A stretch of 63,642 nucleotides of DNA, counting the filler, from Reclinomonas americana ATCC 50394 (Eukaryota), in assembly GCA_048213135.1 (NCBI GenBank). It is 7 parts of 3 records of this genome, joined end to end, with 100 filler letters (N's around TTAATTAATTAA, not from the genome) between each part and the next. Parts side by side here need not be neighbours in the genome. Positions count along the whole stretch, not along the records: positions 32,154 to 58,214 come from PS015060.1; 6 more parts are not named here. One strand, given 5' to 3'. The position numbers were made by a program, and so were the translations under genes. This document shows positions 4,309 to 48,500 of the stretch, piece by piece. Position 1 is the first letter of the stretch, and each line of letters begins with the position of its first letter. The notes beneath the pieces were generated by a model. It worked only from the letters and a program-made list of their open reading frames with translations, was not told the origin of the DNA and ran no database searches.

Positions 4309-5439
4309 TCAGTCAACCACCCAAAACCTTTGCCTAACGAGGCACCGATACACCACTGCCTCTGCCTCCTCCACCACGAAACAGCGCAGTACCATCTCCG
4401 GCAAGCATCGCTCCTCCTGCTCCTCCTGCATCTCCTGCACAGCCTCCAATGCCAATCGCGCCCAGTCGAGCTCAAAGCGGGCGAGGCCACACGGCGTCGA
4501 CCACACGCGAATCGTCTCATCGGAGCCACCGCTCACAACATGCTGACCATCGCGAGAGGCGGCAATGCACTGCACCGTTTTTGTGTTGCCCTCCAGCTGT
4601 TGCACTTCCTCGCCACTCATCAATGACCGCACTCGCACGACCGTGTCGGAGCTCCTCCTGCTCACAATGAACTGATTGTCGAGGACAACAGTGGTAGAGC
4701 GCGCCAATTGCAAGGACGGCCGTTCAGCAATCTGTCGAACCTCCTCCCCAGTTGCCAGCGACCACACCCGCACTGAACAGGTAAACGTCGGTATGCAGGC
4801 TCCGGGACGCCGCACTCCGTTCACGCACTCACAAACAACCAGGTGACCATCAGGAGTGACTGCCACAGAAAAGACAAAATAGCCATGGCACTCCGCCGTC
4901 TGCTGCAACTGCAACGCCGCCTCTCCACTCGTCAGCGACAGCACACGCGCTGTACTGTCCCCGTGACTGCCAGTCACAACGTGCTGACTGTCAGGAGTGA
5001 TGGCGACAGACAGCACAGCGCCAGTGAAGCCTTCGAATCGCCGCAATTCCTCTCCCGTCGCCAATGACCACACTCGCACGGTCCTGTCACCACTCCCGCT
5101 TACTATGTGCTGATTATCGGGAGTGATGGCAACAGAGAGCACCTCTTTCGTGTGTCCCTCCAATATCCGCACTTCGTCGCCACTCGCCAGTGACCACACT
5201 CGCACTGTTGCGTGCTCACTCCCGCTGACAACGAGCTGCCCGTCGGGAGTGACGGCGACACATCGCACAGCGCCAGTGTGCCCCACCAGCCGCCGCAGCT
5301 CGGTGCAAGTAAGCAGGGACCACACTCGCACTGTCGCATCAGCGCCGCCACTCGCAATGTGGAGCGCGTTGGGAGAGAAGGCAATGGACAGCACTGGACC
5401 TGTGTGTCCGCGCAGACATTTGGGGGTGGTGGAGAACAT
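4309..5439 (-). CDS. Intronless WD40-repeat protein, copy 1
   Basis: About 7 GH...SVAxTPDG...VSGS.D.TVRVW repeats. Start MFSTTPKC is shared with copy 2. Confidence 0.9.
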   Translation of the reverse strand: MFSTTPKCLRGHTGPVLSIAFSPNALHIASGGADATVRVWSLLTCTELRRLVGHTGAVRCVAVTPDGQLVVSGSEHATVRVWSLASGDEVRILEGHTKEVLSVAITPDNQHIVSGSGDRTVRVWSLATGEELRRFEGFTGAVLSVAITPDSQHVVTGSHGDSTARVLSLTSGEAALQLQQTAECHGYFVFSVAVTPDGHLVVCECVNGVRRPGACIPTFTCSVRVWSLATGEEVRQIAERPSLQLARSTTVVLDNQFIVSRRSSDTVVRVRSLMSGEEVQQLEGNTKTVQCIAASRDGQHVVSGGSDETIRVWSTPCGLARFELDWARLALEAVQEMQEEQEERCLPEMVLRCFVVEEAEAVVYRCLVRQRFWVVD

Positions 5440-5871
5440 AAGGGAGGGAGAGGGAGGGAGGGGGAGGGGGAAAGGAAGAGAATGAAGAGTCCGTGGCGGG
5501 TTTCGTTTCGTGTTGTGATCCGAGTTGTGTTCGAAAAGTCCTGGCAGATGGGGACGACAACTCGACGCATCCACACTGCGATCTGCCGTGGGGGAGTGTA
5601 CTTCGACAAGGTATGTCGAGGAGCAACTGTGACTATCTGCTGCTTTGTTACGAAGGATCGCGTCGACGTCAATTTTTTCATAGACAACAACTTCTCGGCG
5701 TATACGTCACCTCACGCCTCCCTCCCACTCTGCGTCGTCGTCGTCGTGCTCCGACTGATCCATTGCATGATCTAAATGAACCTCTTAAGCCATCGCCCAA
5801 CCTTCACTTGCAACACAAGCTTACAGCGAAGAGAAAAACAAACAACGAACAGTAACGCAGACTTAGAAGAC

Positions 5872-7011
5872 CTATCTCGCTCTCTCCCAGTCAACCACCC
5901 ACAACCTTTGCCTAACGAGGCACCGATACACCACCACCTCCGCCTCCTCCACCATGAAACAGCGCAGCACCATCTCCGGCAGGCATCGCTCCTCCTGCTC
6001 CTCCTGCATGTCCTGCACAGCTTCCAACGCCAAACGCGCCCAGTCGAGCTCAAAGCGGGCGAGGCCACACGGCGTCGACCACACGCGAATCGTCTCATCG
6101 GTGCCTCCACTCACAACATGCTGCCCATCGCGAGAGGCGGCAATGCGCTGCACCGTTTTTGTGTTGCCCTCCAGCTGTTGCACTTCCTCGCCACTCGTCA
6201 ATGACCGCACTCGCACGACCGTGTCGGAGCTCCTCCTGCTCACAATGAACTGATTGTCGAGGACAACAGTGGTAGAGCGCGCCAATTGCAAGGACGGCCG
6301 TTCAGCAGTCTGTCGAACCTCCTCCCCAGTTGCCAGCGACCACACCCGCACTGAAAAGGTAATCGTCGGTACGCAGGCTCCGGGATGTCGCACTCTGTTC
6401 ACGCACTCACACACAGCCAGCTGACCATCGGGAGTGACAGCAACAGACAACACTAAGCAACCATCCTCCAGCTGCTGCAACTGCAACGCCGCCTCTCCAC
6501 TCGTCAGCGACAATACACGCGCTGTATTGTCGCCGACGCTGCCAGCCACAACGTGCTGACTGTCAGGAGTGATGGCGACAGACAGTACCGAGCGAGTGAA
6601 ACCGTCGAATCGTCGCAATTCCTCTCCCGTCGCCAGTGACCACACGCGCACGGACTTATCGTGGCTCCCGCTCACGATGTGCTGACCATCGGGAGTGACG
6701 GCGACAGAGTTGACTCCTCCAGCATGTCCCTCCAACCGTCGCACTTCCTCGCCACTCGCCAGTGACCACACTCGCACGGTTGCGTGCTCACTCCCGCTGA
6801 CAACGAGCTGCCCGTCGGGAGTGACGGCGACACATCGCACAGCGCCAGTGTGCCCCACCAGCCGCCGCAGCTCGGTGCCAGTAAGCAGGGACCACACCCG
6901 CAATGTCCCATCAGCGCCGCCACTCACAATGTGGAGCGCGTTGGGAGAGAAGGCAATGCACGACACTGGGCCACTGTGTCCGCACAGACATTTGGGGGTG
7001 GTGGAGAACAT
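5872..7011 (-). CDS. Intronless WD40-repeat protein, copy 2 (tandem duplicate)
   Basis: 379-aa ORF highly similar to copy 1. The duplication includes flanks (about 4144-5450 vs 5707-7030). Confidence 0.9.
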   Translation of the reverse strand: MFSTTPKCLCGHSGPVSCIAFSPNALHIVSGGADGTLRVWSLLTGTELRRLVGHTGAVRCVAVTPDGQLVVSGSEHATVRVWSLASGEEVRRLEGHAGGVNSVAVTPDGQHIVSGSHDKSVRVWSLATGEELRRFDGFTRSVLSVAITPDSQHVVAGSVGDNTARVLSLTSGEAALQLQQLEDGCLVLSVAVTPDGQLAVCECVNRVRHPGACVPTITFSVRVWSLATGEEVRQTAERPSLQLARSTTVVLDNQFIVSRRSSDTVVRVRSLTSGEEVQQLEGNTKTVQRIAASRDGQHVVSGGTDETIRVWSTPCGLARFELDWARLALEAVQDMQEEQEERCLPEMVLRCFMVEEAEVVVYRCLVRQRLWVVDWERAR

Positions 7012-7299
7012 GAAAGAGGGGGAGAGAGGAGAGGGAGGGGCGAGTAAGTGAGTGAGTGTGAGTGTGTGTGTGTGTGAGAGAGAGAGGGAGAAAGAGAGGA
7101 GGCAACGCAGTCTCTTTGACAGCTACGTATTGATTGGTGAGAAAGTCCTGGCGAATGGGGACGACATTGAAACTCGCGTGGACTGTGGACGTGGAGTGAG
7201 CGTACTCTGACTCTGCACCTGTCACTCCACTCTGTCTCGAGTCTTCAAGGGAAGAAAGCAACTTCAGGACGTCGACGTCGACGTCGACTTCTTTTCATC

Positions 7300-10353: not shown

Positions 10354-11452
10354 ATGAGCGCAGAAGACGCGCCTGGGGTACGCCTCCTCTCCCTTCTCTC
10401 ACTCACACCTCCTCTCACTCACACCTCCTCTCACTCTTCCCTCCTCCCGCCACACACAGCTCCCTCTCTCCTCCATTCAAATCCGCGACCCTTTCATCTT
10501 CCACGACCGCGCCTCCTCTCGGTACATCCTCACAGGCACCACCGATCGCGATCCTTGGCAGGCAGTAGGCGTCGGATTCGACGCCTACACAAGCTCCGAC
10601 TTGCGCACCTGGCACGGTCCATTTGCGGCCTTCCGACCTTCTTCGGAAGATCCCAGGTGGTCGACTACAGTGAACTTTTGGGCGCCTGAAGTGCACGAGT
10701 GGCACGGGCGATTCTTCTTGTTTGCCTCCTTCAAAGCCGCGGGAGCTTGTCGCGGAACACATGTGCTAGTGGCCGAGGATGCACTGGGACCGTATGTGGA
10801 GCACAGTCGGGGAGCTGTGACCCCGAGTGACTGGGAGTGCTTGGATGGGACGCTGTATGTGGACGCGCAAGGGCAGCCGTGGATGGTGTTTTGTCGCGAA
10901 TGGGTGCAGATTGGCGACGGGAGCATGGAGGCAGTGCGTTTGTCGGAGGATTTGCGGGAGGCGGTCGGTGAGCCGCGGAGGTTGTTTACGGCGTCGGAGG
11001 CGGTGTGGGCGAGGCGGATTGACTGTGTGGCGGAGGAGTGGTGTGCGGCGTTTGCGCCGCGGTGTGAGGAAGGGTGGGTCACTGATGGGCCGTTTCTGTG
11101 GAGGCATGCGTCGAGTGGTGCGCTGTGCATGTTGTGGTCGACCGATGGGCACGAGGGCTACGCCATGTTGCGTGTCTCGCTCTGTCTCTTCTTTCCTCTT
11201 CTCCTCACCTCCTTTGTCGGGGACAGGGGCGTGGCGGTCAGCGACTCGGGCAGCGTGGAAGGCCCGTGGCGGCAACTGGCCAAGGCGCTGTTCACCCGCG
11301 ACGGTGGCCACGGTATGCTGTTCCGACGCTCGGACGACGAGCAGCTGATGCTCACACTGCATCGCCCCAACAACACGCCCGACGAGCGCGCCGAGTTCTT
11401 TCGGGTGCGGGAGGTGTCGGCCGACGAGGGCTACTTGGTGATCGAGACGTAA
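10354..11452 (+). CDS. Glycoside hydrolase family 43 (bacterial-type five-bladed beta-propeller), 3 exons
   Basis: IRDPFI...TGTTD, FWAPEVH, CLDGTLY, EWVQIGDG, VTDGPF and DGGHGMLF motifs. Introns at about 10378-10459 and 11167-11226; the latter is 60 nt and in frame, and its removal restores GYAMGVAVS. Confidence 0.9.
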
Positions 11453-16152: not shown

Positions 16153-16366
16153 NNNNNNNNNNNNNNNNNNNNNNNNNNNNNNNNNNNNNNNNNNNNTTAA
16201 TTAATTAANNNNNNNNNNNNNNNNNNNNNNNNNNNNNNNNNNNNNNNNNNNNGTAACGTAACGTAACGTAACGTAACGTAACGTAACGGTACGGTACGGT
16301 ACGGTACGGTACGGTACGTACGTAACGTACGTACGTACTACTACTACTCTCTTCTTACTACTACTA

Positions 16367-18442: not shown

Positions 18443-21400
18443 CTATCTGCCTTGTCGCTGGGAAAAGGCGTATCGGTGATCCAACTCGCTTCTGTCGTCG
18501 CGTTGCTGCTGGGAGGAGAGGTACTCGAGTGTCTGCGACACCGACTGGGAGCTCTCCAGGTAGCGATTGCGCATGGCCTGCGTCTCAGCCTGCAAGCATG
18601 TGATTGAATGAGAACGAATGACAACATGTGTGTGCGTTTCGGCGACGGCAATCAATGACCTCCAGTTGCTCGAGTGCCCTGGCGCGCTCGGCCATCTCCG
18701 ATCGCTTCTTTGTCTCACGCGGTGATAATCGCCCAGCTGCTGCGGACGCCGCCGGAGCCGCCAAAGCTGAAGCAGTGGCGGTGGTCGTAGTACTTACTGC
18801 CGCCGCCGGCGACGGCACCTCGAGATACACATCCGTGTGATCGGCTCTCCTCGGCGACGGCTGCGGCAGTGGCACTGGCGACATGCGCAGCGACGACGAC
18901 GGGTCGCCCACGGCCAATGACGACGCGTCAAGGCTGTCACTAGGCAGTGGTGTACCACCCAGCGATTGACGAGCGGCGCGCTCATCGTGCCGTTGCCGGA
19001 AAAAGTCTCGCAAAGCCGACGCCACCTGCACTGCACGAGCGGCCGGTCTCCCGATCCCCACACCACCGCCGCCGCCACTGCTGCCACTGGCGGCCATGGA
19101 GGACTGCGACAGCGGGGGCGCACCACCATTGCCCACCAGCGGTGCCACGATGGGCGGTTGTGTGTACGGCGACGGGTCGTTCATCGCCGACACACTCTGG
19201 TTGTCGGACAGCGGGTCGTCCCACGACGCCAGCTCACTCGTGCGAGCCGCCTGCTCGTCGAGGACCAGTCCGCCACCGTTGCCACGCATGCCGTCCATGA
19301 CGTAGCCGAGCTCCGAATCCGTGCCATCACCGCCCCCGACAAAGCCACCGCCGACTCCTCCCGTGCCACGCATGGTGGCCAGGGCCGACTCGAGGTGCGC
19401 AATGCGCGAACGCAGCGTCTCCTTGTCCATGGGGTTTGGTGCGGGCGGCGTTGGTGCCGATGCCGACATGTCTCCTAATGTGGGAGACAGAAGAGGGTGA
19501 CAAGGATGCTCTCCGACAACCCACCTCTTAAGAGTCACTCACCAAACATGCCGCGCCCACCCATGCCGAGCATCGTGTGTGCCATGGCAGATGGAACGCC
19601 ATATCGCGACTGCAACTCCACCACCTGCCGCTCTAGCGTCTCATTCGACTGCTCCAGTCCACCACGCAGTATTTGCAGACGATCGCGCTCCTGCAGTCAT
19701 CGACAAGATTGGCTTTCGAATCCGCACACACATCCACGGGCACACACTCACACAATCCGCATACACACATTCTCCTGTCTCAGTGTATTCTTACTCACAT
19801 ACACTCACAACACTAGACGTGCAATNNNNNNNNNNNNNNNNNNNNNNNNNNNNNNNNNNNNNNNNNNNNTTAATTAATTAANNNNNNNNNNNNNNNNNNN
19901 NNNNNNNNNNNNNNNNNNNNNNNNNGACACACACACACACACACACACTCACTCACTCACTCACTCACTCACAAACAACACTAGACGTGCACAATCACAC
20001 ACACACGCAAGTGTAACGCATACTAACATGCACAGATGTCACACAATCACTCACGCAAACTAACAAGGACGCAAAGCCTCCTGTCTCAGTGCATTCTCTC
20101 TCACATACACACACTCTCTCACTCTCTCTCTCTCTCTCTCTCTCTTTCTTTCACATGCTCACCATTTGCGCCACCTCCAACCGCTCCTGCAGCGTGCCAC
20201 ACTCATCCTCCAACGACTGCGCCTTGGAAGAGATACGCTCCAGTCGCTCCACCAGCTGCAGACGTTCGCGGCGCATATCCTCCACGTCTGCACTCGCACA
20301 GCCATCATCAATACGCACTCTCGCTCGCAACCGTACAAGCACAAGCGACGCACCTTGATGCAACCGAGCCATCTTCTGGTCCTGCAGCTGCATCGACGAA
20401 AGTGCGTCGGAGAGCGACTGGTGGTACACGTAGATCCACTCCTTCAGCTCGGCAATCGAGGCAGTCGTCGACAAGAGGCTGCACGAGGTGCATGAGTATG
20501 ACGGAGGGCAGACAGGCAGGCAGGCCACTCAAATACACACCCTTCGCGCACGACATTCGGCAGCACTTTGCTCGGGTGTCGCGACTGCATGCCACAGAAA
20601 ATTAGATCAATGTGTTCGCGGAGAGCAATCCCGTGCGCCATCACGCAACTGCCGGTGGCGAGTGCACAGCCGCGCTGAACGCGGGCGGGAACAGCTCCGA
20701 GAACAGCGACAGGTCGTCGTACAGACTGCGAATGTTGGCCAGGAAAAGCTCCCACTGGTGGTCCTGCTGCTTCAGTGGCGAGGCGGGAGCGCCGGCATCT
20801 GGCTTGCTCGAGGCATCGTGCACGGCAGCCGTCACCGCGGCCGTAAAGACCGGTGACCGGCCCGATGCAGCCGCCGTTTCTGCCGACGGTGACGGGGTGG
20901 CCAGCGCTGGTGAGGCTCCTAGTGCAAGGGGAAAGGAAAGCAGATGAACAGCAAGGAAGCGATGATGTACAAGCCACCAAACTCACCAGTGGGCAGCAAC
21001 GGTTTCGGATTCATCACCGCCGTGTGCATAACACCTTGCTTCAACGACTGCGGCAAGTGTTTGGAAAGGTAGCCAATCACCTGCAGGCTAGAGTGAATGA
21101 ACCAATGACTGTTCGCATATAGTGCACCCTCCCACGCACCCGATCATCGCGGCTGATTTGCAACTTGGACGTCGACGACACGGTGTGGTAGAGCGACTGG
21201 AACTCCGACTTGACAATCTCCTGATTGCGCTCGCATTCGCGCACGCGATGCAGCAACACGGCAATGATCAAGAACACATCGGCGATGATGCGCTCGGTGA
21301 ATTTGGTGGCGTCGTTGGACGGGACTGCGAAGCGGCAATTTAGAATCACGAGAGTACCGTCAAATTCTATCTCTCTCCGTGTAAGTGTGTGTGTCAAGGA

Positions 21401-22458: not shown

Positions 22459-25400
22459 TGTGTGTCAAGGTGGCGCAAAAGACAAGCCCGCAGGAGTTTT
22501 CTGAGCACTTCTCTGTCTCCAAGTCTATGTACCTCCCCCTCAACCTCTCTCTTCTCGCAGTGTCCCTGTCGCACTCTCACTCCTGAGCTCCTCCCTGAAC
22601 CTCTCTCTGTCTATATGCCTCTCCTTCCCTTTCTCTCCCTCCCTCTCCTCCCCCTCTCCCTCTCCCTCCCCTCTCCCTCCCCCTCTCCCTCTCCTCCCCC
22701 CTCTCCCCCCTCTTTGCCCCTACAACGCACCATCACTACCCGTCTCTGGAGGCTCCGGGGTCTGCAGGTCGTGCAGTTCCACATACCAGTGCTGACGGAA
22801 CGAGACAACCAACTTGCGCAACTGCGACACGAAATAAATCAGCACTTTCGCGTGCCACGCAGAATCTCTTCGACTCTACACGCAACTCGGTCCATTGCAG
22901 CAATCGACTTGAAGTACACTTCCCGATTCTGCGACAGTCGGCTGCGCAGTTCGTGCGAGATCAATCCCTTCTTGTTGCCGTCGTCGGTCAGCAACGACAC
23001 GGTCTGGTCCAGCGTCGAGGTGTTCTTCTCCAGAATCTGCACCTGCTGTCGCAGCGACGAGTTGTGCGACTCCAGCACCTGCACAGCCGAGGTCAGCGAC
23101 CCAAGCACCACATCTCCAACAAAACGAGAGACATGCCTCGCACTGCTTCTTCAGCGTCTCGATCTCGGCCACCTTCTCCAATAGCGTCTCCTGCAGCACA
23201 AACACCGAGTTTGGCATGTCCTGTCCGAGTAGCGAGCGGAACGTGGCCGCATTGGCACTCGGTCCGCGCTGCAACAGTTCCTCCATCACGTTCAACGATT
23301 GCTGACCGCTGGCCAGTCGCTCGTGCTCTCGATGCAAACGCTGCTCGAGTTCCATGAGCGGTGTCGGATTTCCGTCGGCCTCCAGGCGCTGATGCTCCAG
23401 GGCCAAAACATAGTCATCCGCAATACCCACATCGGTGGTTCGTGGATACATGGCGCGGTTGGCGCGCGGTGTCGACGATGCGCCCGCCGACGCTGCTGCC
23501 GCTGCCGCTGCCGACGACGACGATGACGATACCGGCATGCGACTCTCGCTGCCACTGGCAATCTCCAGCGTGGGGTCACTGCGCGTCGGAGAGACAGATG
23601 AGCAACACAGAAGGAAAAAAGCGAGAGAGTCACGGTGCGACGCAACAAGTGCCCACTGGCGCCCGAGTGTGTCGGGTATCGCGGCGAGGCTGTGGCCAGG
23701 TAGGACTCCATCTTGCCGTCACCAGGACTGCCGGGTGAGCGCAACGTCGCAAATCGCTGTGCGTGGCTCAGTTGCAGCCTACGAGAGTGGATCAGCAAAC
23801 GAGGCACTTCTCCATTGCCAGTAGAGGATACAAACCTCGCCGCATCCAACTGCTCGCGCAGCGACTTGCTCAACGCACGCTCCTTGTTCAACTCACTCTC
23901 CAGAGCCCGGTACTGATGCTGGAGATTGCGATGCGCGGCCGCCATCACCTCCGACTGCCGGCGCTCGTCCATCAGCTGTCGCTTGGTTTCCTCCAGCAGA
24001 CGCTCCGATGCCACTCGCTCCACCACACTCCGTTCCTGCATGGCATGCGCCATGAGCGGAGTGGCCAAGCGGAATGCCCACTTATTGCACGGAGGACGCA
24101 CCTTCTCTTCCAGATCACGGTACGGCCCCTTGCCGCTCAGCGCGTCCAACTTGCGCTGCAAGTCGGCGGCCAACTGACGGTAGTCAATCTCCTCGTTCAC
24201 CACTGGTTTGATGGCCACGGTGCGAGCCCGGTGTCCGAATAACAGAGAACCCGTGGTCTCGCTGACATTTCTGTCGGCCGGACCAATGTTGACGAGCAGC
24301 GAGGTGCGGCTGTTGCCGCCGAGGGTGTCCTGTGGGAGGGAAAGGGGGAAAGGGGGGGGGGAGGGGAGGGAGGAGAAGGAGGGGGGGGAGGGGGGGAGGA
24401 GGAAGAAGGNNNNNNNNNNNNNNNNNNNNNNNNNNNNNNNNNNNNNNNNNNNNTTAATTAATTAANNNNNNNNNNNNNNNNNNNNNNNNNNNNNNNNNNN
24501 NNNNNNNNNTACTCTCTCTCTCTCTCTCTATTTTCAAGAGACCTTGTCGCTGTGTTGCTTTCTCTGTGTGCTCAATCGACATGACTCTGTGTTTGAGCAG
24601 CTTCTGTACTCTGCCCACAGATTGTCATTCTGCGCAAATCCTCTCTATTTTCAAGAGAGCTTCGGTGCACTCTGGCAGAACATACTGGTCGCTCTCTCTC
24701 TCTTTCTCTCTCTACACGCTCAGTGCATTCAGAGCAGCTCCAACAGTTATCACTGTGCGCTTCCTCTGCCCTCTCTCTCTCTCTTTTTCTCCCTATTGTT
24801 TGTTCGCACGCAACTTGCAGTAATCTGGTGAGCTTCGAGTCACGCCACGGCACGAATCGCGAAGATGAGGCTGGGTCGGAGAGCGCGGCAATCACGTTGC
24901 CGAGGGCTGAAAGTGAAAGGTTGATGCTCTTGGCCTCCTCCAGATGCTGGCCCTCGGCGTGCGTCTTGGCGGCACGCTCGCTGCCGGCCAGATCGACGCA
25001 TGTGAACTTGGCGCGCACGGTGCTGCGTGTGAGGAAAGAGGAATTTAGCAAGAGAGATGGAGGCAAAGAAGGAAGTGAAGACAGAGCGAGGAGGACATAA
25101 AGAGAGTGAGAGAGAGAGGGAGAATGAGATAAATAGGCAGAGCGAGTGACACAAATTCAGACGAGTACTTCGAGGCTTGCAAGGCAGAAGGAGCAGGGAG
25201 AAAATGAGCGAAACATAATCATGGGCTCACAGACAAATGGAAAGAGAGAGAAGAGAGAGAAAGAGAGAGAGACAGAAAGAGAGGAAACAGAAATGAGGCG
25301 AGAAAAGGCGATGGCGACAGAGAAGCAGACAAACAGAAAGCGAGTGAGAGTGAGAGAGAGAGAGAGACAGAGACAGAGGCAGAGGTAGCGATGAAATAAA

Positions 25401-32713: not shown

Positions 32714-35700
32714 TCAAGACGGCACCACATACGTGTGATATCCAAACTCCTCACCGCTGTCGAAGCGCACGATGGCGACTTGACACACCGGGCACTGGCC
32801 ACGACGTGCCGCCACCTCCTCCGCACACACGCGACACAATACCTGATGACCGCACGGTCGCAAGCACGTGTCGCGCACGCCGTCGCACACCATGCACGCG
32901 CGGCGCGACGACAGTGTCGCGACATCACGCAGCTCGCTCGCCAGCTCCTCTGATGTCGGCCGACGGGAGTCTCGCTGATCCACGCACCTGCAATCAACAA
33001 CACAGTGAGTGAGGAAACAAGAAAAGTCCTTCCATCTCCCACCACACACGCACCGCAAACACAGTCGCACAATCCGCTCGCACACCGGTGCAGGCCACAC
33101 ACGACCCACCCGCACATCCGCAATCTCCGATGCGCATCTGCCCAGCTCCTGTTCGTCCATTTCTTGCAATCGCTCCAGCAATGCGTGCACATCAGCAATC
33201 GACTTGCCACACAACAGCTGGAGCAAGATGAGGCCGAGGCAGTACACATCGACACTCGGACGCAGTTGACCGCGCAGTGCCTTTGGATCGGCGTACATGA
33301 GGTCGCCAGCAAAGCCAACCTTGTCATGCGTCTGCCAAGCATGTACAGTATTCGTTACTCCATGCGGCGAGAGAAGGAAAGCGGTCCCTCTTCCGCACCT
33401 TGTGCACCGGGAACCAGTGCGCCACTCCCATGTCCGACACAAATGCTCGGTTGTGCTGGTCAAAGAGAATGTTGGCTGGCTTCAAATCACGATGAATCAC
33501 TGCGCTCATGGAGTCAGTCAATCAACACACGATGGAAAACCAGAGATGGTACAACGCACCAGGCTGCTCCAGAAGCACCACAACAAAAACAGCGCAAGAG
33601 AAGAATGAGAAACAAGCACACTTCAACAATCACGCTCACAGAAACACACACCTTTTCCAGTCTGCGAGGGAAGAAAACAGAAGCAATCAGCCACAAAGGA
33701 AAGGAGGGCGGACATTCTCTCAATCATCAATTCACGCAACTTGTGCATGGCGGCCACCACCTCCGCGCAGCGCAGAATGCAGTTCATGCGATCCTCAATC
33801 GTCATCACGGGCAGTCCGTGCTCCTCAAACTCAAGCAGCCGGTGTTCCAGGTTGTGCGGGCTGACGCACGCTCGAAGAAATGAGCCTCACATTTATCTCT
33901 CCGGTGTTGTCTCATCTTTCCCTTCTCCCACCTCGCGTATCACTCGCTCTCTCCTGCATTCACTTCCTTTGACTGCTTCTCCCATCTCCCCATGCCTAGT
34001 ACGGTTCGCACTCGTTCTCTTCTGTCTTCCATTCTCCTCTCTCTGCCAGTTCCTTCTTCCATCCCTCGAATCATTCGCGCTCGTTACACCTGCATTCTCT
34101 TCTCTTCTCATTCTCTCCCTTCATCTCCACCCCTCGTATCCTTCGCACTCATCTCCCCAACATTCTCATCTCCTCACTGCCTCTCCCTTCTCCCCACCCC
34201 GTATCATTCTCTCCCGCATTCTCCTATCCTCTCTGCCTTTCTCTTCATCTCCACAACTCACCTCATACCCTCCAGCACAATGCACCGCTCGCCGTGATTC
34301 GACTCGGCGTACCCAATCATTCGCACAATCCCCGGAACATTGGAAGTCACCGCCTTGAGCTTCTCCAACTGCGCAGCTCAGAGTGTTTGAGCGACACACA
34401 CACCCACTTCAATCTGCTTTCTTTCCCGCTCACCTCTTCGGCAAACGAGTCGATGCACCACTCCGCCGCCCGATCAAACACTTTCACCGCCACCTCCTCG
34501 TCCATCCATCGACCGGCGTACACCTCCGCCTGGCCACCGCCGCCAAGTCGACGCCGAAAGCTGTCGCTCATGGCCGCCACTTGTTCCCACGCAAACACCG
34601 TCAATGGCGCTGAATATCAAAAGTCAACCGCGCAAAACAAAGGAAGGACCGTATGGGGAAGGCGCACGTCACCTCGCTCATTGAGCTGTGCTTGTACCAA
34701 TCGCAACTCGACAGCCAGACGCTCCGCTCGATCACGCTCCATCTGTCGCAACTCGTCCATGCGTTCGACTGCGGCACACGAGGCGGCACTGACACCATCA
34801 ACCGACTGCCTCGGCTCCTCCCGTGCGACGGCGAGTGCCTGCTGCAACTGAACAGCACGGTCTCGCCATTCCGACGCTAGGCGATTTTGCTCGGCGGCTC
34901 TTTGCTGTTGCTCATCGGCTTCGCGCTGCGTACGCGCAACGATGGCGACATGTCGCTCCACCTGCTGCTGTGCGGCCAGGAGCTCGTCACGCAGGTGGGC
35001 GACTTGTTTTTGCTGCTCTCGTGCTTGCGCCTCCTGCCACTCCGTAGAGCGACGCATCTGGGCCACGAGGTCGTCGTGCTCTCTTCGCTGTCGGTCCCAC
35101 TCTCGATGCTGCAGCTCTCGCTCTTGGTGCGCAGCTGCGAGATCGCGCTGGAGCAGAGCAATGAACTCGTCCTTGTCCGCGGGCTGGCGGCGTGCAATGG
35201 GTGCATTGATAGCCGCCTGCAAAGAGGAAAGCAGGAGACACAGCATGCATGCAGAGTGAGGGTGAATGGTAACGTGAGGAACACTATCGGTTGTCTCACC
35301 TGCCGTGCTGGCACTACATAATCAAACACAGCGAGAACACAAGCAAGTGGAAGGCGTGAGCGTGAAATGCACATACAGCATGAACAAGGCAACAGACTTG
35401 AGAATCAAACCTGGTTGCAGCTGGAATTGTTGTTGTTGTTGTTGTTTTGGCGGAGGCAGTGGCACCGCTGCCGCAATTGCCGAAACTGGTCCAGCAGCTG
35501 GCTGCGCTGCCAGGTCGTCTAGCACCTTCGCCAATTGCGTGTCCCCCTCGTCACGTGCCCACTGAGACGCCGTCTTGCCCTCATCGTCAACCATTGGAAT
35601 GAGATCGGGATGCCGAGTGGCGAGGATATGCGCAATGGCAATGTGGCCTTGTCGGGCAGCGAAATGCAGCGCAGTTGACTGCGGCAAGCTGGAACGGCCG

Positions 35701-42200: not shown

Positions 42201-44997
42201 ACAGAGATGTGGCCTTGTTGAATGGCCGAATCAAAGGCCGAGCAGCCATACTCATCCATCTCCTCATTCGTAAGCAGAACATGCGCGCCCTCACGTGCCA
42301 CAAGCTCGCGCAGCGCCTCCACGTCGTCGTCAAATGCCATCTCCCATGCTTTCCTCATCGGTCGCTGGGGAATGGCACTGCCAACATATCGGAGAGTGAG
42401 TTCGAGAGTGCGTACAACCTGGCACTGAAAAAATATCGGCGCACGAAACGGAGACTAAACGTCGCACGCAGAGTGAACGAGTATGCGAAAATGTAGGAAT
42501 GAGACAAATGATCGACTAGGCGAAAGAATGGAACGGCGTGAAAGCCTCACCTTGCGTGCTGGAGCTGCCAATTCCGCATAAACAGTGAGCAAAGAAATGC
42601 GCAACATGAAAACACGCAACGGGACCAAACCTGCTGGTGGGGGCTGTGGTAGAGGAACAGGTGGAGGCGCAGCGAGACCTTCAAGGAACTCGGCCACTTG
42701 CATTCTGCCCTTGCGTCGTGCCGACTGGGCAGCCGTCTTGCCCTTGGAGGTGACCACACCGATGAGATCAGGGTAGCGATTGACGAGGAGCCGCACGATG
42801 GCTTCATGGCCATGCATGGTAGCAAAGTGCAGCGCGGTGGACTGAGGATGACTAGCTTGAACCCTGCCGAGCGCTCGCACCATTTCCGGCGGACATCGTC
42901 TCTCGTCGGCAAGCAACCACTCCACCACTCGGAGATGCCCGGCAGAAGCGGCCCCCATCAACGGTGTGAGGCCATACTTGGTGACCGCTTGAGCGAGCTG
43001 CGGCCCAATGCCGGTCTCCTCCCACAAATACTCCAAAACGGAGAGGTGGCCGTGATGTGCGGCCCAATAAAATGCGGAGCCACGGGCACCCATCCCCTCA
43101 CTCGTCAGTAGGACGTGAGCACCATCACGCGCCACCATCGCACGGAGAGCGTCCACATCGCCGTCCCTCGCCAGCTGCCACGCACATTTCCTCTGAAGAA
43201 TCGCACTGCCAGCAATCAACGTGAGGGTGTGTATGCAAGCTGAGACCGACGAACCACAAGTGTACGAAACTAGGAGTGCACATCGCATGCAAAATGAACG
43301 ACAATAAGAATAATGTGAGACGATGGATCGAGTGGCAGAATGAAAACGCGATGACGGTCTCACCTGTGGGGCTACGGAGAAAAAAACAGGAAAGCGTGAG
43401 CAAAAAGAAGAGCAGCAAGGCAACATACAAAAGCCGTCAAACCTTGTGGTGGTGGCGGAGGTGGCGGTGGAGGAGCAGCGAGATTGTCAAGGAACTGGGC
43501 CACCTGCTGCTTGCCCTTCTCTCGTGCCCATTGCGCCGCTGTTTTGCCCCGCTTGTTTACCATGCCAATCAGACCAGGAGAGCGAGCGGCAAGGAGCTGC
43601 ACAACGGCGAGGTGGCCGTTGGAGGCAGCATAATGCAGCGCGGTAGACTGTGAGTTGCCGGACATGCAACTGTCAACAGCCCGCACCATCTCCGGCGGGC
43701 ACCGTCTCTCGTCGGCGAGCAACCACTCCACAACTTCCAGACGGCCATTCGAGGCCGCGACCATCAGCGGTGTGAAGCCGCTATCGTTGGTCATGTGTGC
43801 GAGTTGCGGTCCGGCGCCACTCTCCTCCCACAAGTACTCCAAGACAGAGAGATGGCCGCGCTGAGCAGCCCAGTGAAACGAGTTGCCACTGGCACTCATC
43901 TCCTCCCTCTCCAGCAGTATCTGGGCGCCCTCACGCGCCACCAACCTGCGCAGCGCTTGCAAATCGTCGTCCCTCGCCATCTCATACGCTTTCTTCCCCT
44001 GTTGTTGAGAAATTGCACTGCCAACAAATCAAAGTGCGATTGTGAGTGCGCTTGCAAGCGAAAACTGACAAATCACACGCATACACGAAACTGAAAACAA
44101 TGCACGGCATGGAGGGTGGAGTTAGAAACAAGTCGGCGTGAGACAATCGGTTGACTGGCGGAGAGAGAACAGTATGACGGGCTTACCGGGCGTGCTGCCA
44201 CTGTACCGCAAAAGAAGAAGCAAACACATGAAACACGGTGAGCAGAAAGACCACGGCCAGCAATCAAGACGACAGACATGGCAAGCACACCTGGAGGTGG
44301 AGAAGCAGGCGGCTGTGTGGCTGGCGGAGAGGACAGTGGCAGTGGTGGCAGTGGTGGCAGCGGTGGAAGCGGAAGTTCCGCAACAAGGCTGTCAATCAAC
44401 TCGGCCACCTTCTGCTTGTCGTAGTTGCGCGCCCATTGCGCCGCCGTCTTGCCCTCCTTGTTGACCAACGGAATCAGACCGGGGAAGCGAGTGGCAAGGA
44501 GCTGCACAATGTTGCTGCGGCCATTTGCGGCAGCAAAGTGCAGTGCGGTGGACTGTGGATGCACAGAGCGGTCATTGGTGGCCATCAGAACCATCTCCGG
44601 AGGACACCGCCGCTCGTCGGCAAGCAGCCACTCCACCACACGCAAACGCCCAAAGCACGAGGCCGCCATCAACGGCGTCACGCCATAGTCATCGGCCACG
44701 TGCGCGAGTTGTGGCCCCATGCCAGACTCCTCCCACAAGAACGCCAACGCCGGAAGATGACCATGCACGGCGGCGCAGTAGAAAGCCGACCAGCCACGCT
44801 CACTCATCTCTTCTCTCTTCAGCAGTGTCTGGGCGCCCTCACGCGCCACCAACTTGCGCAGTGCGCTCACATTGCCGTCTCTTGCCATTGCCCACGCTTT
44901 TTTCCTGCGTTGCGGATCGGGGGCACTGTGGAGGTATTATCAGTGTGCGTATAAAGAGCAGATATGCGCTGAAAGACCACGCAGGAGCACACCTCAT
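39283..44997 (-). CDS. Ankyrin-array / coiled-coil / RLK-Pelle-like kinase / RING (C3HC4) protein, copy B
   Basis: Same exon architecture as copy A. Ankyrin exons are 44291-44925, 43443-43998, 42631-43192 and 41722-42364. Kinase and RING exons are nearly identical to copy A. Confidence 0.85.
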
Positions 44998-45602
44998 TCT
45001 TCCTGAGAGATTGGAAGGGAGAAGACACCAGCAGATACTTTTTCGTTTGCCTTCTCTTGCGCAAGTGTGTTTGCGTGCGAGAGTTTTTGACGTCGAGTTT
45101 TTCCGTGTTGCCCTCACTTGTCCTATTTCATGCACGCGACGTTGTGAGATTCTTCTCGCCGTGCAAGTGGCCTGCATGTCATATACGCCAATGTAAAACG
45201 CCAAAGGAAAGACTGTGCTTGGTCCCCACGCAACGCTCGACTTGTCACCGCTGCGCGCGAAATACCGCATGCACGTCGACGTCGTTCTCGAGGCCCGCCG
45301 GTCCACAGCGTGGATAGCCACTGTCCAGTACGCATTACCGCAAAGTGCAGGTGAGAGCGATGTTGCAGAATGCACGGCCTGCAAGTTCAAGGTCATTCGC
45401 AAAGGTCTCGACGTTTGCGTGCGACCGACTTATAATTACAATTCGAATTACAAACCCAGTCAGCGCGCGCCTGGGTGACTGACTCTTTTATTCTAACACT
45501 CGCAATTGTGAAAACCGGAAACCAATGACGCTCAACACGGCCAAGAAGTTCAACGTCAGATGTCCTGCGCGCTTTGTTTCATTCGTTGTTTGTGAGAGAG
45601 CA

Positions 45603-48500
<2,898 letters not shown>

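What the first reader, a model, noticed from the sequence alone, without database searches (positions are those of the whole stretch)
32714..44997. Tandem ankyrin-array / kinase / RING genes: candidate diversifying intracellular sensor-E3 system
Seen: two adjacent genes each encode four ankyrin modules (about 4 repeats each, about 16 in total), a coiled coil, a kinase and a C-terminal C3HC4 RING. No signal peptide or TM segment is visible. Kinase and RING are almost identical between copies, while the ankyrin modules differ. Known: the kinase motifs ([42 protein letters not shown]) are RLK/Pelle/IRAK-like, and the coiled coil-kinase-E3 order recalls plant U-box kinases. Inference: a variable binder joined to a constant signalling and ubiquitylation module, an architecture suited to non-self recognition (viruses, intracellular bacteria). 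I do not recognise this domain order from a characterised protein.
Basis: partly seen in the sequence, partly recalled or inferred. Interest (0 to 1): 0.82.

Follow-up and report, generated by a model that had tools for sequence, protein, structure and literature searches.

The report
Two tandem ankyrin–kinase–RING ligase genes
Two neighbouring genes of an unidentified eukaryote each join four ankyrin binding domains to an IRAK-like kinase and a ubiquitin-ligase RING, a little-studied design that resembles plant kinase–U-box proteins.

Summary
On the minus strand, 32714-38718 and 39283-44997 each assemble, through 16 GT-AG introns, into one open frame (1364 and 1351 aa). The order is four ankyrin domains, a long alpha-helix, a protein kinase and a C-terminal C3HC4 RING.

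- **Ankyrin part:** each ankyrin domain is a capped five-repeat unit of DARPin size. It is carried by one large exon plus an 8- or 14-nt micro-exon, which together keep the reading frame.
- **Kinase and RING:** the kinase is of the IRAK/Pelle/plant-RLK kind. The RING is of the IAP/MDM2 kind.
- **Divergence between copies:** silent divergence is even along the gene (dS about 0.17-0.23). The kinase is under strong constraint (dN/dS 0.12), the ankyrin domains much less (0.54-0.72). Differences concentrate on the canonical ankyrin binding face, and the domains are mosaics exchanged out of register.
- **Limits:** dN/dS never exceeds 1, only two copies are visible, and no transcript, organism or partner is known.
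- **Relatives:** the same kinase-RING cassette occurs in unnamed environmental proteins with ankyrin, WD40, TIR, SH3, UBA or CUE heads.

The closest characterised analogue is the plant PUB-VI/RLCK-IXb group. My verdict is a variable-binder kinase/E3 protein. An immune-sensor role is plausible but unshown.

The parts
39283..44997 (-). Gene A: 17 exons, 1351 aa. Four ankyrin domains, long helix, kinase, RING.
   Evidence: Spliced model with GT-AG introns only. Family profile match of 275 bits.
44993..44997 (-). A exon 1: ATGAG, giving the start codon plus 2 bases.
   Evidence: Phase fits the module-1 acceptor. It sits in a 50-nt block identical in A and B. The start codon is inferred.
44291..44925 (-). 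A ankyrin module 1 (A1).
   Evidence: Pfam Ank_2 E 1.3e-18. No close partner in B: dS about 0.8 to every other module.
44187..44200 (-). A micro-exon, 14 nt.
   Evidence: YAG...GTAAG signals, and it restores phase 0.
43443..43998 (-). A ankyrin module 2 (A2).
   Evidence: Ank_2 E 4.7e-23. AlphaFold2 model pLDDT 89 with five helix pairs. Closest to B1.
43364..43371 (-). A micro-exon, 8 nt.
   Evidence: TAG|CCCCACAG|GTGAG.
42631..43192 (-). A ankyrin module 3 (A3).
   Evidence: Ank_2 E 6e-18. Closest to B2.
42551..42564 (-). A micro-exon, 14 nt.
41722..42364 (-). A ankyrin module 4 (A4).
   Evidence: Ank_2 E 1.6e-16. Resembles both B3 and B4.
41610..41623 (-). A micro-exon, 14 nt.
40997..41519 (-). 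A long-helix exon (putative coiled coil).
   Evidence: AlphaFold2: helices 5-124 and 133-173, pLDDT 89. Heptad signal not significant.
40762..40937 (-). A kinase exon: glycine loop and VAVK lysine.
40594..40700 (-). A kinase exon: alpha-C region to hinge.
40311..40435 (-). A kinase exon.
40229..40238 (-). A micro-exon, 10 nt, inside the kinase.
   Evidence: With it, the spacing before HRD fits the family profile with a 1-residue gap.
39969..40074 (-). A kinase exon: HRDLKPAN and DMG.
   Evidence: Pfam Pkinase on the matching piece of B, E 5.6e-7.
39617..39900 (-). A kinase C-lobe exon.
   Evidence: Best solved match is IRAK4, E 4.4e-5.
39283..39556 (-). A last exon: end of kinase, C3HC4 RING, conserved tail, stop.
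   Evidence: zf-C3HC4_3 at 35.7 bits. All eight zinc ligands present.
32714..38718 (-). Gene B: 17 exons, 1364 aa, same architecture as A.
   Evidence: Family profile match of 277 bits.
38714..38718 (-). B exon 1: ATGAG.
37953..38629 (-). B ankyrin module 1 (B1): the 5' part is like A1, the body like A2, followed by a Q/E-rich linker.
   Evidence: Ank_2 E 1e-25. Mosaic shown. A 111-nt run is identical to A2.
37850..37857 (-). B micro-exon, 8 nt.
37110..37677 (-). B ankyrin module 2 (B2).
   Evidence: Ank_2 E 4e-16. Closest to A3.
37030..37043 (-). B micro-exon, 14 nt.
36297..36843 (-). B ankyrin module 3 (B3).
   Evidence: Ank_2 E 2.7e-19. The 5' two thirds are like A4, the 3' third unlike any module here.
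36206..36213 (-). B micro-exon, 8 nt.
35411..36038 (-). B ankyrin module 4 (B4).
   Evidence: Ank_2 E 8.7e-18. Like A4.
35300..35313 (-). B micro-exon, 14 nt.
34673..35216 (-). B long-helix exon.
   Evidence: 89% identical to the A helix.
34434..34609 (-). B kinase exon: glycine loop and VAVK.
34262..34368 (-). B kinase exon.
33736..33860 (-). B kinase exon.
33652..33661 (-). B micro-exon, 10 nt.
33399..33504 (-). B kinase exon: HRD and DMG.
   Evidence: Pfam Pkinase E 5.6e-7.
33048..33331 (-). B kinase C-lobe exon.
32714..32987 (-). B last exon: RING, tail and stop.
   Evidence: zf-C3HC4_3 at 34.9 bits.

Best explanation
These are two recently duplicated, intact genes for soluble proteins that combine a kinase and a ubiquitin ligase.

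Proposed mechanism:
1. Four self-contained ankyrin domains, each a capped five-repeat binder the size of a DARPin, hold one or more partner proteins.
2. A helix of about 160 residues spaces the chains and probably pairs them.
3. An IRAK/Pelle/RLK-type Ser/Thr kinase phosphorylates itself or the bound partner.
4. The C-terminal IAP/MDM2-type RING recruits an E2 to ubiquitylate the partner or the protein itself. By analogy with plant PUB33, the kinase and the ligase probably regulate each other.

Each ankyrin domain sits in a frame-neutral cassette of one large exon plus one micro-exon. Domains can therefore be duplicated, lost or swapped without breaking the frame. The two copies have done exactly this, and they are drifting apart in what they bind while keeping the same output module.

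Shown here: the anatomy, the family assignments, the selection contrast and the mosaic history.
Inferred: partner binding, chain pairing, both enzyme activities and their cross-talk.
For: Gene models:
- Full open frames run across 17 exons in both copies, with AG|GTG(A/T)G donors and YAG acceptors at 32 of 32 introns.
- The pattern YAG-N8-GTRAG occurs 16 times in the window against 8.1 expected. Eight of the 16 lie on the minus strand at the eight predicted micro-exon sites.

Ankyrin domains:
- Ank_2 is found in 8 of 8 modules.
- The module model has pLDDT 89 and pTM 0.85, with five helix pairs.
- Its best fold matches are N3C DARPins and designed ankyrin proteins, with TM scores of 0.69-0.87.

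Helix: one helix of 120 residues and one of 41.

Kinase:
- The lysine, alpha-C glutamate, HRD and D-x-G aspartates are present in both copies.
- Of 53 solved-structure hits of the C-lobe/RING exon read-through, 26 are IRAK4 and no other kinase appears.
- The profile of 25 relatives scores IRAK4 at 304 bits, followed by FERONIA, Pto, BIK1 and BAK1, with EGFR at 233 bits.
- The same profile scores the window's proteins at 275 and 277 bits.

RING: all eight zinc ligands are present, the Pfam score is above the cut-off, and the closest solved RINGs are BRE1, MDM2, XIAP and cIAP.

Selection and history.

Relatives and analogue:
- Unnamed relatives from short ena/jgi contigs carry ankyrin repeats, kinase and RING in one predicted protein; P0012, for example, is 548 aa on a 1740-nt contig.
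- PUB33, built as USP, long helix, RLCK and U-box, has both activities, forms homomers and is switched by autophosphorylation (abstract and passages).
Against: - There is no transcript evidence. The start codon and the eight inter-module micro-exons rest on phase logic and splice signals alone.
- The activation-segment motifs deviate from the standard (DMG for DFG, ADP for APE). The relatives' consensus also has D-x-G and DP.
- Heptad periodicity of the helix is not significant, and its first 45 residues or so are highly charged. It may be a single stiff helix rather than a coiled coil.
- Self-association could not be tested.
- No partner, no expression data and no organism are known.
- In a FastTree of 351 columns, the window's pair lies outside the well-supported clade (0.999) that holds 6 of the 7 ankyrin-bearing relatives. 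Its ankyrin head may therefore be an independent acquisition. What those relatives do, which is itself unknown, may not carry over.
Confidence: 0.6

Rival explanations
1. This is the first reader's view: a germline-encoded intracellular sensor of non-self. The ankyrin domains would be under diversifying selection to track viral or bacterial proteins, and binding would trigger IRAK-like kinase and RING output.
For: - dN/dS is raised in the ankyrin domains (0.54-0.72) against the kinase (0.12) at equal dS.
- Canonical binding positions carry 3.73 distinct residues across the 8 modules, against 2.22 elsewhere (p 1e-6). dN in the recent pairs is 0.31 at those positions and 0.12 elsewhere.
- The modules are mosaics exchanged out of register, with patchy gene conversion.
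- The genes are a tandem duplicate.
- The kinase's closest solved relatives are IRAK4 and plant immune RLKs and RLCKs.
- One relative carries a TIR domain ahead of the same cassette (P0031).
- PUB33 ubiquitinates a bacterial effector (abstract).
Against: - dN/dS is below 1 at binding positions (0.73 pooled; one pair reaches 2.3 on only 2.3 synonymous differences) and in the hypervariable loop (0.80).
- The surface-versus-rest difference in non-synonymous to synonymous counts is not significant (p 0.08).
- Surface positions of any ankyrin protein are the least constrained, so the pattern also fits relaxed constraint.
- Old module pairs show dN/dS of 0.25-0.48, which is purifying.
- Only two copies are visible.
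- No infection or expression data exist, and the host organism is unknown.
Confidence: 0.2
2. The cassettes are used as alternatives. Exon 1 or any micro-exon could splice to any downstream module, so one gene would yield isoforms with one to four ankyrin domains in different combinations.
For: - Every internal cassette is a multiple of 3 in length: 564, 576 and 657 nt in A; 582, 555 and 642 nt in B (lengths).
- All micro-exon donors and all internal module acceptors, as well as the helix-exon acceptor, are phase 0.
- Each internal module keeps, 18-27 nt upstream of its phase-0 acceptor, a second AG (GCAG|TGC...). That AG is in phase with exon 1 and opens the same reading frame.
- The 14-nt micro-exons hold an inner CAG that would give an in-frame 8-nt form.
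Against: - This is pure sequence logic with no RNA data.
- Frame-neutral cassettes are equally expected from an origin by exon duplication.
- The upstream AG may be a relic of the module-1 acceptor or part of the pyrimidine tract.
Confidence: 0.1
3. The gene models are wrong. The ankyrin exons would form genes of their own, or one copy would be a decaying pseudogene, so the architecture would be an artefact of joining ORFs.
For: - No transcripts are available.
- Micro-exons of 8-14 nt are unusual.
- The genes themselves are absent from the protein libraries searched.
Against: - Both copies keep open frames over about 4.1 kb through 16 introns each, with identical exon structure at dS of about 0.18.
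- The six kinase-RING junctions are validated by an unbroken profile match.
- Purifying selection acts on every part (dN/dS below 1).
- Relatives have ankyrin, kinase and RING in one protein.
- No Pfam family is found on the opposite strand (0 of 10 ORFs).
Confidence: 0.07

Closest known systems
Plant PUB-VI / RLCK-IXb proteins such as Arabidopsis PUB33 (bioRxiv 10.64898/2026.02.10.704836, abstract and passages read; PMC12803775, search listing only)
   Same: Both have an N-terminal accessory domain, a long alpha-helix predicted to pair, an IRAK-related cytoplasmic kinase and a C-terminal E2-recruiting domain in one soluble protein. The paper reports dual kinase and E3 activity, homomers, and regulation of both activities by autophosphorylation.
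   Different: The plant proteins have a U-box with no zinc ligands, where this protein has a zinc-binding C3HC4 RING. They have a USP domain where this protein has four ankyrin domains. Descent from a common fused ancestor was not tested, because no PUB sequence was available to me.
Unnamed environmental ankyrin-kinase-RING proteins (P0073, P0152, P0153, P0012, P0019, P0024, P0127, P0128, P0144)
   Same: They share the same kinase-RING cassette, with the RING about 8 residues from the C-terminus and a shared tail motif. Ankyrin repeats lie ahead of the kinase.
   Different: They are at most about 38% identical in the C-lobe/RING region. Their ankyrin parts match the window's module only as generic repeats. 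Six of the seven ankyrin-bearing relatives in the tree form a clade (support 0.999) that excludes the window's pair. None has a name or a known function.
Arabidopsis KEG (PMC3697954, passages read)
   Same: One protein holds a RING, a kinase domain and ankyrin repeats and acts as an E3 ligase.
   Different: KEG's order is RING, kinase, ankyrin, HERC2-like repeats. Here the order is ankyrin, helix, kinase, RING. No HERC2-like repeat was found by Pfam.
IRAK4 with its partner E3s (Pellino, TRAF6) in animal Toll/IL-1 signalling. The pathway is recalled; IRAK4 similarity is.
   Same: The kinase is of the IRAK kind, and IRAK signalling is coupled to RING E3 ligases.
   Different: In animals the kinase and the E3 are separate proteins, assembled through death domains. 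No death domain was found here.
XB3/XBAT ankyrin-RING ligases of plants and Mind bomb
   Same: Ankyrin repeats serve as the substrate-binding part of an E3 with a C-terminal RING of the same Pfam type.
   Different: They have no kinase domain in the same chain.
Designed ankyrin repeat proteins (N3C DARPins)
   Same: Each module's model superposes on five-repeat DARPins with TM scores of 0.69-0.87 and 28-34% identity. The positions that differ between modules are the ones randomised in DARPin libraries (position set recalled; test).
   Different: These are natural domains. They carry an invariant [13 protein letters not shown] insert followed by a hypervariable loop of about 12 residues between repeats 3 and 4.

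Membership tests
IRAK / Pelle / plant RLK kinase family (TKL group) | The kinase domain is more like IRAK/RLK kinases than like other kinases. | tested here: met
   The C-lobe exon hits only IRAK4 among kinases (26 of 53 PDB hits at E<=0.01). The profile of 25 relatives ranks IRAK4 at 304 bits, plant RLKs at 270-298 and EGFR at 233. The window's spliced proteins score 275 and 277 bits on that profile. This is indirect for the N-lobe, because spliced proteins could not be sent to the PDB search.
IRAK / Pelle / plant RLK kinase family (TKL group) | Catalytic residues of an active kinase. | tested here: met
   VAVK lysine, alpha-C glutamate, HRDLKPAN and the aspartate of D-M-G are present in both copies. 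APE is replaced by ADP, as in the relatives' consensus. Activity itself is untested.
IRAK / Pelle / plant RLK kinase family (TKL group) | Placement inside the RLK/Pelle clade in a tree with reference TKL kinases. | not tested
   No reference kinase set could be brought into the script machine.
RING E3 ligases, Pfam zf-C3HC4_3 (IAP/MDM2-like C-terminal RING) | C3HC4 zinc-ligand pattern, with a score above the curated cut-off. | tested here: met
   35.7 and 34.9 bits against a cut-off of 27. The pattern C-x2-C-x10-C-x-H-x3-C-x2-C-x9-C-x2-C is intact in A and B. The closest solved RINGs are BRE1, MDM2, XIAP and cIAP.
RING E3 ligases, Pfam zf-C3HC4_3 (IAP/MDM2-like C-terminal RING) | E2-dependent ubiquitin transfer. 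| not testable with these tools
   This needs an in vitro assay.
Ankyrin repeat proteins | Repeated helix-turn-helix and loop units matching the Pfam Ank models and the ankyrin fold. | tested here: met
   8 of 8 modules match. The model shows five helix pairs. Foldseek top hits are all ankyrin proteins.
Unnamed protist-type kinase-RING cassette family | Kinase, short linker, terminal RING and conserved tail aligned in one stretch. | tested here: met
   32 of the 150 best library hits align from kinase to RING in one stretch with spliced A. 32 of 32 carry Pkinase and zf-C3HC4_3. The tail motif is shared.
Plant PUB-VI / RLCK-IXb | C-terminal U-box domain. | tested here: not met
   The C-terminal domain is a zinc-binding RING, and no U-box hit appeared in Pfam.
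Plant PUB-VI / RLCK-IXb | N-terminal USP domain. | tested here: not met
   Ankyrin domains take its place, with no Usp hit.
Plant PUB-VI / RLCK-IXb | Long alpha-helical domain ahead of an IRAK-related kinase. | tested here: met
   The defining feature is taken from passages.
KEG-type RING-kinase-ankyrin-HERC2 ligases | Order RING, kinase, ankyrin, HERC2-like repeats. | tested here: not met
   The order is reversed and no HERC2-like repeat was found. The feature is taken from passages.
NLR/STAND immune receptors | Central NACHT or NB-ARC NTPase domain. | tested here: not met
   No such Pfam hit was found in any of the 17 ORF pieces.

The most novel reading that the evidence does not exclude
The locus may be part of a protist innate-immune receptor family built on a new plan. 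A string of DARPin-like binder cassettes would be reshuffled between paralogues by out-of-register recombination and gene conversion, and perhaps also by cassette splicing. The binders would be wired directly to an IRAK-type kinase and a RING ligase. Recognition, Myddosome-like kinase signalling and ubiquitylation, which animals and plants spread over several proteins, would then sit in one chain. The TIR-, WD40- and SH3-headed relatives would be sister receptors using the same output cassette.
Probability: 0.15. Interest if true: 0.8.

Novelty: new variant of a known kind. Interest (0 to 1): 0.48.

Why it matters
Proteins that are both a kinase and a ubiquitin ligase are rare. Only the plant ones (KEG, PUB-VI/RLCK-IXb) have been studied.

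This locus shows that an IRAK/RLK-type kinase fused to a terminal RING is a reusable output cassette in little-known eukaryotes. It appears with swappable binding heads, here four ankyrin domains in frame-neutral exon cassettes.

- If the ankyrin heads recognise foreign proteins, the family would be a new single-chain form of innate immune receptor. It would bear on how IRAK-kinase and E3 signalling arose before plants and animals diverged.
- If the heads bind host proteins, the locus is still a natural example of modular binder evolution.
- Either way, it offers a tractable system for studying cross-talk between a kinase and an E3 in one chain.

Tried and rejected
- **Close relatives.** A word-indexed search for longer proteins found none. 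The exhaustive representative search gave 415 hits at E<=1e-3 but none at E<=1e-30, with a best E of 7.6e-14. No orthologue could therefore be compared.
- **Organism.** It was not identified. A CSN6-like neighbour gave one unnamed hit, Rfam gave none, and the Atlas taxa were uninformative for that gene. For the RING/kinase piece the Atlas pointed weakly to haptophytes, with the phylum known for only 2-8 members of each cluster.
- **Positive selection.** It was looked for at canonical binding positions and in the variable loop, and dN/dS above 1 was not found. The loop was chosen after seeing the data.
- **Coiled-coil periodicity.** It was not significant.
- **Self-association of the helix.** Complex prediction was handed the same job 17 times and was never queued because the queue was full. 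There is no result.
- **Other splice readings.** A direct module-to-module intron is impossible with GT-AG because of a phase 1 donor and a phase 2 or 0 acceptor. Reading through the inter-module spacers meets stop codons.
- **Unspliced start.** The unspliced reading from the upstream ATG (MRCAPAW...) is in frame with the ankyrin domain in B but not in A, so I did not treat it as a signal peptide.
- **Opposite strand.** 0 of 10 ORFs matched a Pfam family.
- **Flanks.** 0 of 6 flanking ORFs matched a Pfam family.
- **Literature.** Four searches for this architecture listed 20 of 59, 12 of 12, 15 of 26 and 12 of 245 papers. None describes it. The unlisted papers and all supplements were not seen.
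- **Tree.** The tree of the cassette is used only to say where the pair does not sit. Many 'headless' relatives may be fragments.

Full report
**What is there.**
- The window is eukaryotic DNA from a draft scaffold, with GC of about 52-61% where no gaps intervene.
- The finding lies in one gap-free stretch, 32154-46650. It is bounded by a scaffold linker and by a 749-N gap.
- Stop-to-stop ORFs on the minus strand carry ankyrin, kinase and RING pieces in the same order twice.
- Pfam finds Ank_2 in 8 of 8 module ORFs (E 1e-16 to 1e-25). It finds zf-C3HC4_3 in both last ORFs at 35.7 and 34.9 bits (cut-off 27). Pkinase matches exon-sized pieces only weakly.
- On the plus strand, 0 of 10 ORFs in the region match any family.
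- tblastn with the spliced protein finds no further copy in the window.

**Gene models.**
- By reading the junctions I could join each gene into a single open frame using GT-AG introns only. Gene A is 44997-39283, 17 exons, 1351 aa. Gene B is 38718-32714, 17 exons, 1364 aa.
- The donor consensus over 32 introns is AG|GTG(A/T)G. Introns are 59-401 nt.
- Each ankyrin module is one exon of 547-677 nt. It starts in phase 0 (the first module in phase 2, after a 5-nt first exon ATGAG) and ends in phase 1.
- A direct GT-AG join to the next module is therefore impossible. Between all modules, and between module 4 and the helix exon, there is a pyrimidine tract, YAG, 8 or 14 nt, then GT(G/A)AG. This micro-exon restores phase 0.
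- The pattern YAG-N8-GTRAG occurs 16 times in the window (8.1 expected). Eight of the 16 are the eight predicted sites.
- A 10-nt micro-exon inside the kinase is supported by homology. With it, the spacing before HRD fits the relatives' profile with a single-residue gap.
- The six kinase and RING junctions are thus validated by an unbroken profile match of 275 and 277 bits.
- The ankyrin junctions and the start codon rest on phase logic and signals only.
- The first exon sits in a 50-nt block identical in both genes.
- A CSN6-like gene runs the other way. Its MitMem_reg exon is at 47608-48207. By eye, with no Pfam support, a possible first exon lies near 45.6 kb. This leaves little room for further upstream exons of gene A.

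**The parts.**
- *Ankyrin module.* An AlphaFold2 model of one module, built from the alignment of all eight, has pLDDT 89 and pTM 0.85 and shows five helix pairs. Its best matches in the PDB are five-repeat DARPins and designed ankyrin proteins (E about 1e-7, TM 0.69-0.87, 28-34% identity). So each protein carries four separate, capped binder domains joined by proline- or glutamine-rich linkers, about 20 repeats in all.
- *Helix.* The next exon is predicted as one helix of 120 residues and one of 41 (pLDDT 89). It is 67-69% E, Q, R, A and L. Its heptad periodicity is not significant (p 0.27 and 0.08), and its first 45 residues or so are very charged. 'Coiled coil' is therefore plausible, not shown.
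- *Kinase.* It keeps the lysine, the alpha-C glutamate, HRDLKPAN and the D of D-M-G. It has ADP in place of APE.
- *RING.* All eight zinc ligands are present, and the RING ends 11 residues before the C-terminus.
- *Localisation.* No transmembrane segment or signal peptide is seen in the models.

**Family.**
- Read through its in-frame 60-nt intron, the C-lobe/RING exon pair hits 53 solved sequences at E<=0.01. Of these, 26 are IRAK4 chains and 27 are RING ligases (BRE1, MDM2, XIAP, cIAP, RNF8, MYLIP and others). No other kinase appears.
- The exhaustive search of 1.84 billion representatives gives 415 hits at E<=1e-3 and none at E<=1e-30. The genes themselves and any close orthologue are therefore absent from that library.
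- Of the 150 best hits, 32 align with spliced gene A from kinase to RING in one stretch, with the RING about 8 residues from the end. All 32 carry Pkinase and zf-C3HC4_3.
- Seven of the 32 carry ankyrin repeats. Single members carry WD40, TIR, SH3, UBA or CUE domains ahead of the kinase.
- A profile of 25 of them scores IRAK4 at 304 bits, then FERONIA, Pto, BIK1, BAK1, CERK1 and BRI1, and only then EGFR at 233 bits.
- The ankyrin-bearing relatives come from unnamed ena or jgi contigs. The nearest named proteins are plant receptor-like kinases at 30-38% identity, without a RING.
- In a FastTree of 351 columns, the window's pair lies outside the clade (support 0.999) that holds six of the seven ankyrin-bearing relatives. 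The ankyrin head may have been added more than once. Many 'headless' entries may be fragments, so I draw no more from the tree.

**How the two copies differ.** Table 1 gives the comparison by region, all.

| Region | dS | dN/dS | Protein identity |
|---|---|---|---|
| Kinase | 0.17 | 0.12 | 96% |
| Helix | 0.19 | 0.31 | 89% |
| RING with tail | 0.23 | 0.38 | 87% |
| Module pair A2-B1 | 0.20 | 0.66 | 80% |
| Module pair A3-B2 | 0.18 | 0.72 | 80% |
| Module pair A4-B4 | 0.31 | 0.54 | 72% |

- Silent divergence is much the same along the gene, so the whole unit was duplicated once. The B1 segment in that call was 8 residues short because of my anchor.
- Non-synonymous to synonymous changes are 157:73 in the three module pairs against 12:30 in the kinase (odds ratio 5.4, p 3e-6).
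- Across all eight modules, the positions that DARPin libraries randomise (set recalled, fixed before the test) hold 3.73 distinct residues against 2.22 elsewhere (p 1e-6). In the recent pairs dN there is 0.31 against 0.12.
- The most variable stretch is a loop of about 12 residues after an invariant [13 protein letters not shown].
- Yet dN/dS stays below 1: 0.73 at the binding positions and 0.80 in the loop. Older module pairs show 0.25-0.48.
- The data therefore show a much weaker constraint on the binding face than on the enzymes. They do not show positive selection.

**Module history.**
- The modules do not correspond one to one. A2 matches B1, A3 matches B2, A4 matches both B3 and B4, and A1 has no partner.
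- Sliding windows show mosaics.
  - B1 has an A1-like 5' flank and start (81%) and an A2-like body (up to 99%).
  - B3 has the upstream intron and first two thirds of A4 (89-93%), and a last third unlike any module here.
  - B4 is A4-like in its exon and 3' flank but has a different upstream intron.
- Runs of 111 and 87 identical bases, in A2/B1 and A3/B2, stand out against about 13% divergence. They point to recent gene conversion.
- Every cassette (large exon plus micro-exon) is a multiple of three in length. Such exchanges, and in principle exon skipping, therefore keep the frame.

**Comparison with what is known.**
- The closest characterised design is the plant PUB-VI/RLCK-IXb group: USP domain, long helix, IRAK-related kinase, U-box. 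For PUB33 a 2026 preprint reports both kinase and E3 activity, homomers, switching by autophosphorylation and ubiquitination of a bacterial effector (abstract and passages).
- The window's proteins work on the same plan but fail two defining features of that group: they have a RING, not a U-box, and ankyrin domains, not USP.
- KEG has RING, kinase and ankyrin repeats in another order, plus HERC2-like repeats (passages).
- Four literature searches found no description of ankyrin-helix-IRAK-like kinase-RING proteins among the rows listed. The P. infestans kinome paper lists ankyrin-TKL kinases but no RING (passages).

**Verdict.**
- The reading 'variable binder on a constant kinase/E3 module' is supported. 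'Diversifying immune sensor' is an open possibility, which I put at about 0.2.
- Still unchecked: transcripts, the organism, genome-wide copy number (both ends of the contig abut assembly breaks), self-association of the helix (the job was never queued), and both enzyme activities.

Noticed in passing
16153-16252, 19826-19925, 24410-24509, 32054-32153, 58215-58314, 60683-60782: Six identical 100-nt spacers, each made of 44 N, TTAATTAATTAA and 44 N. These are six-frame-stop scaffold linkers, so the order and orientation of neighbouring pieces are not assured. One lies 560 nt below gene B's stop.
   Followed up: partly
4312-5706 and 5875-7122, minus strand: Two tandem WD40 beta-propeller ORFs (Pfam WD40 E 3e-52 and 7e-51). 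tblastn finds no kinase or RING beside them, although one relative of the finding has a WD40 head.
   Followed up: partly
10358-11449 (+); 31309-32053 (+); 47608-48207 (+): Neighbouring genes: a glycoside hydrolase family 43 ORF, an HMA heavy-metal-binding domain, and the C-terminal part of an MPN/CSN6-like protein. The last is transcribed away from gene A.
   Followed up: partly
34052-34200 (intron 12 of gene B): A 68-nt tandem repeat of 2.2 copies makes this intron 401 nt, against 158 nt in gene A.
   Followed up: no
45002-44953 and the matching stretch near 38723-38674: A 50-nt block around the ATGAG first exon is identical in both genes, although the flanks are about 74-81% alike. It may hold the start, the 5' splice site and a regulatory element.
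   Followed up: no
43813-43703 = 38422-38312; 42949-42863 = 37428-37342: Runs of 111 and 87 identical bases between module A2 and B1, and between A3 and B2. They suggest recent gene conversion between the genes, one module out of register.
   Followed up: partly
41610-41623, 42551-42564, 44187-44200, 35300-35313, 37030-37043: Each 14-nt micro-exon contains an inner CAG that could serve as an acceptor for an 8-nt form. The two forms would differ by two codons and both keep the frame.
   Followed up: no
protein P0031 (library hit, not in the window): A relative with a TIR domain ahead of the same IRAK-like kinase and RING cassette. It pairs with ankyrin-headed P0127 in the tree with support 1.0.
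   Followed up: no
62219-63411, minus strand: Three ORFs with repeated units of about 100-130 residues, each containing '...SVRFEP..CS...'. They have no Pfam match.
   Followed up: no
whole window: Many simple repeats (CT, CA, GAGT, GTAAC, TACGTCG units) lie next to assembly gaps. There is no Rfam match in the 63.6 kb.
   Followed up: no
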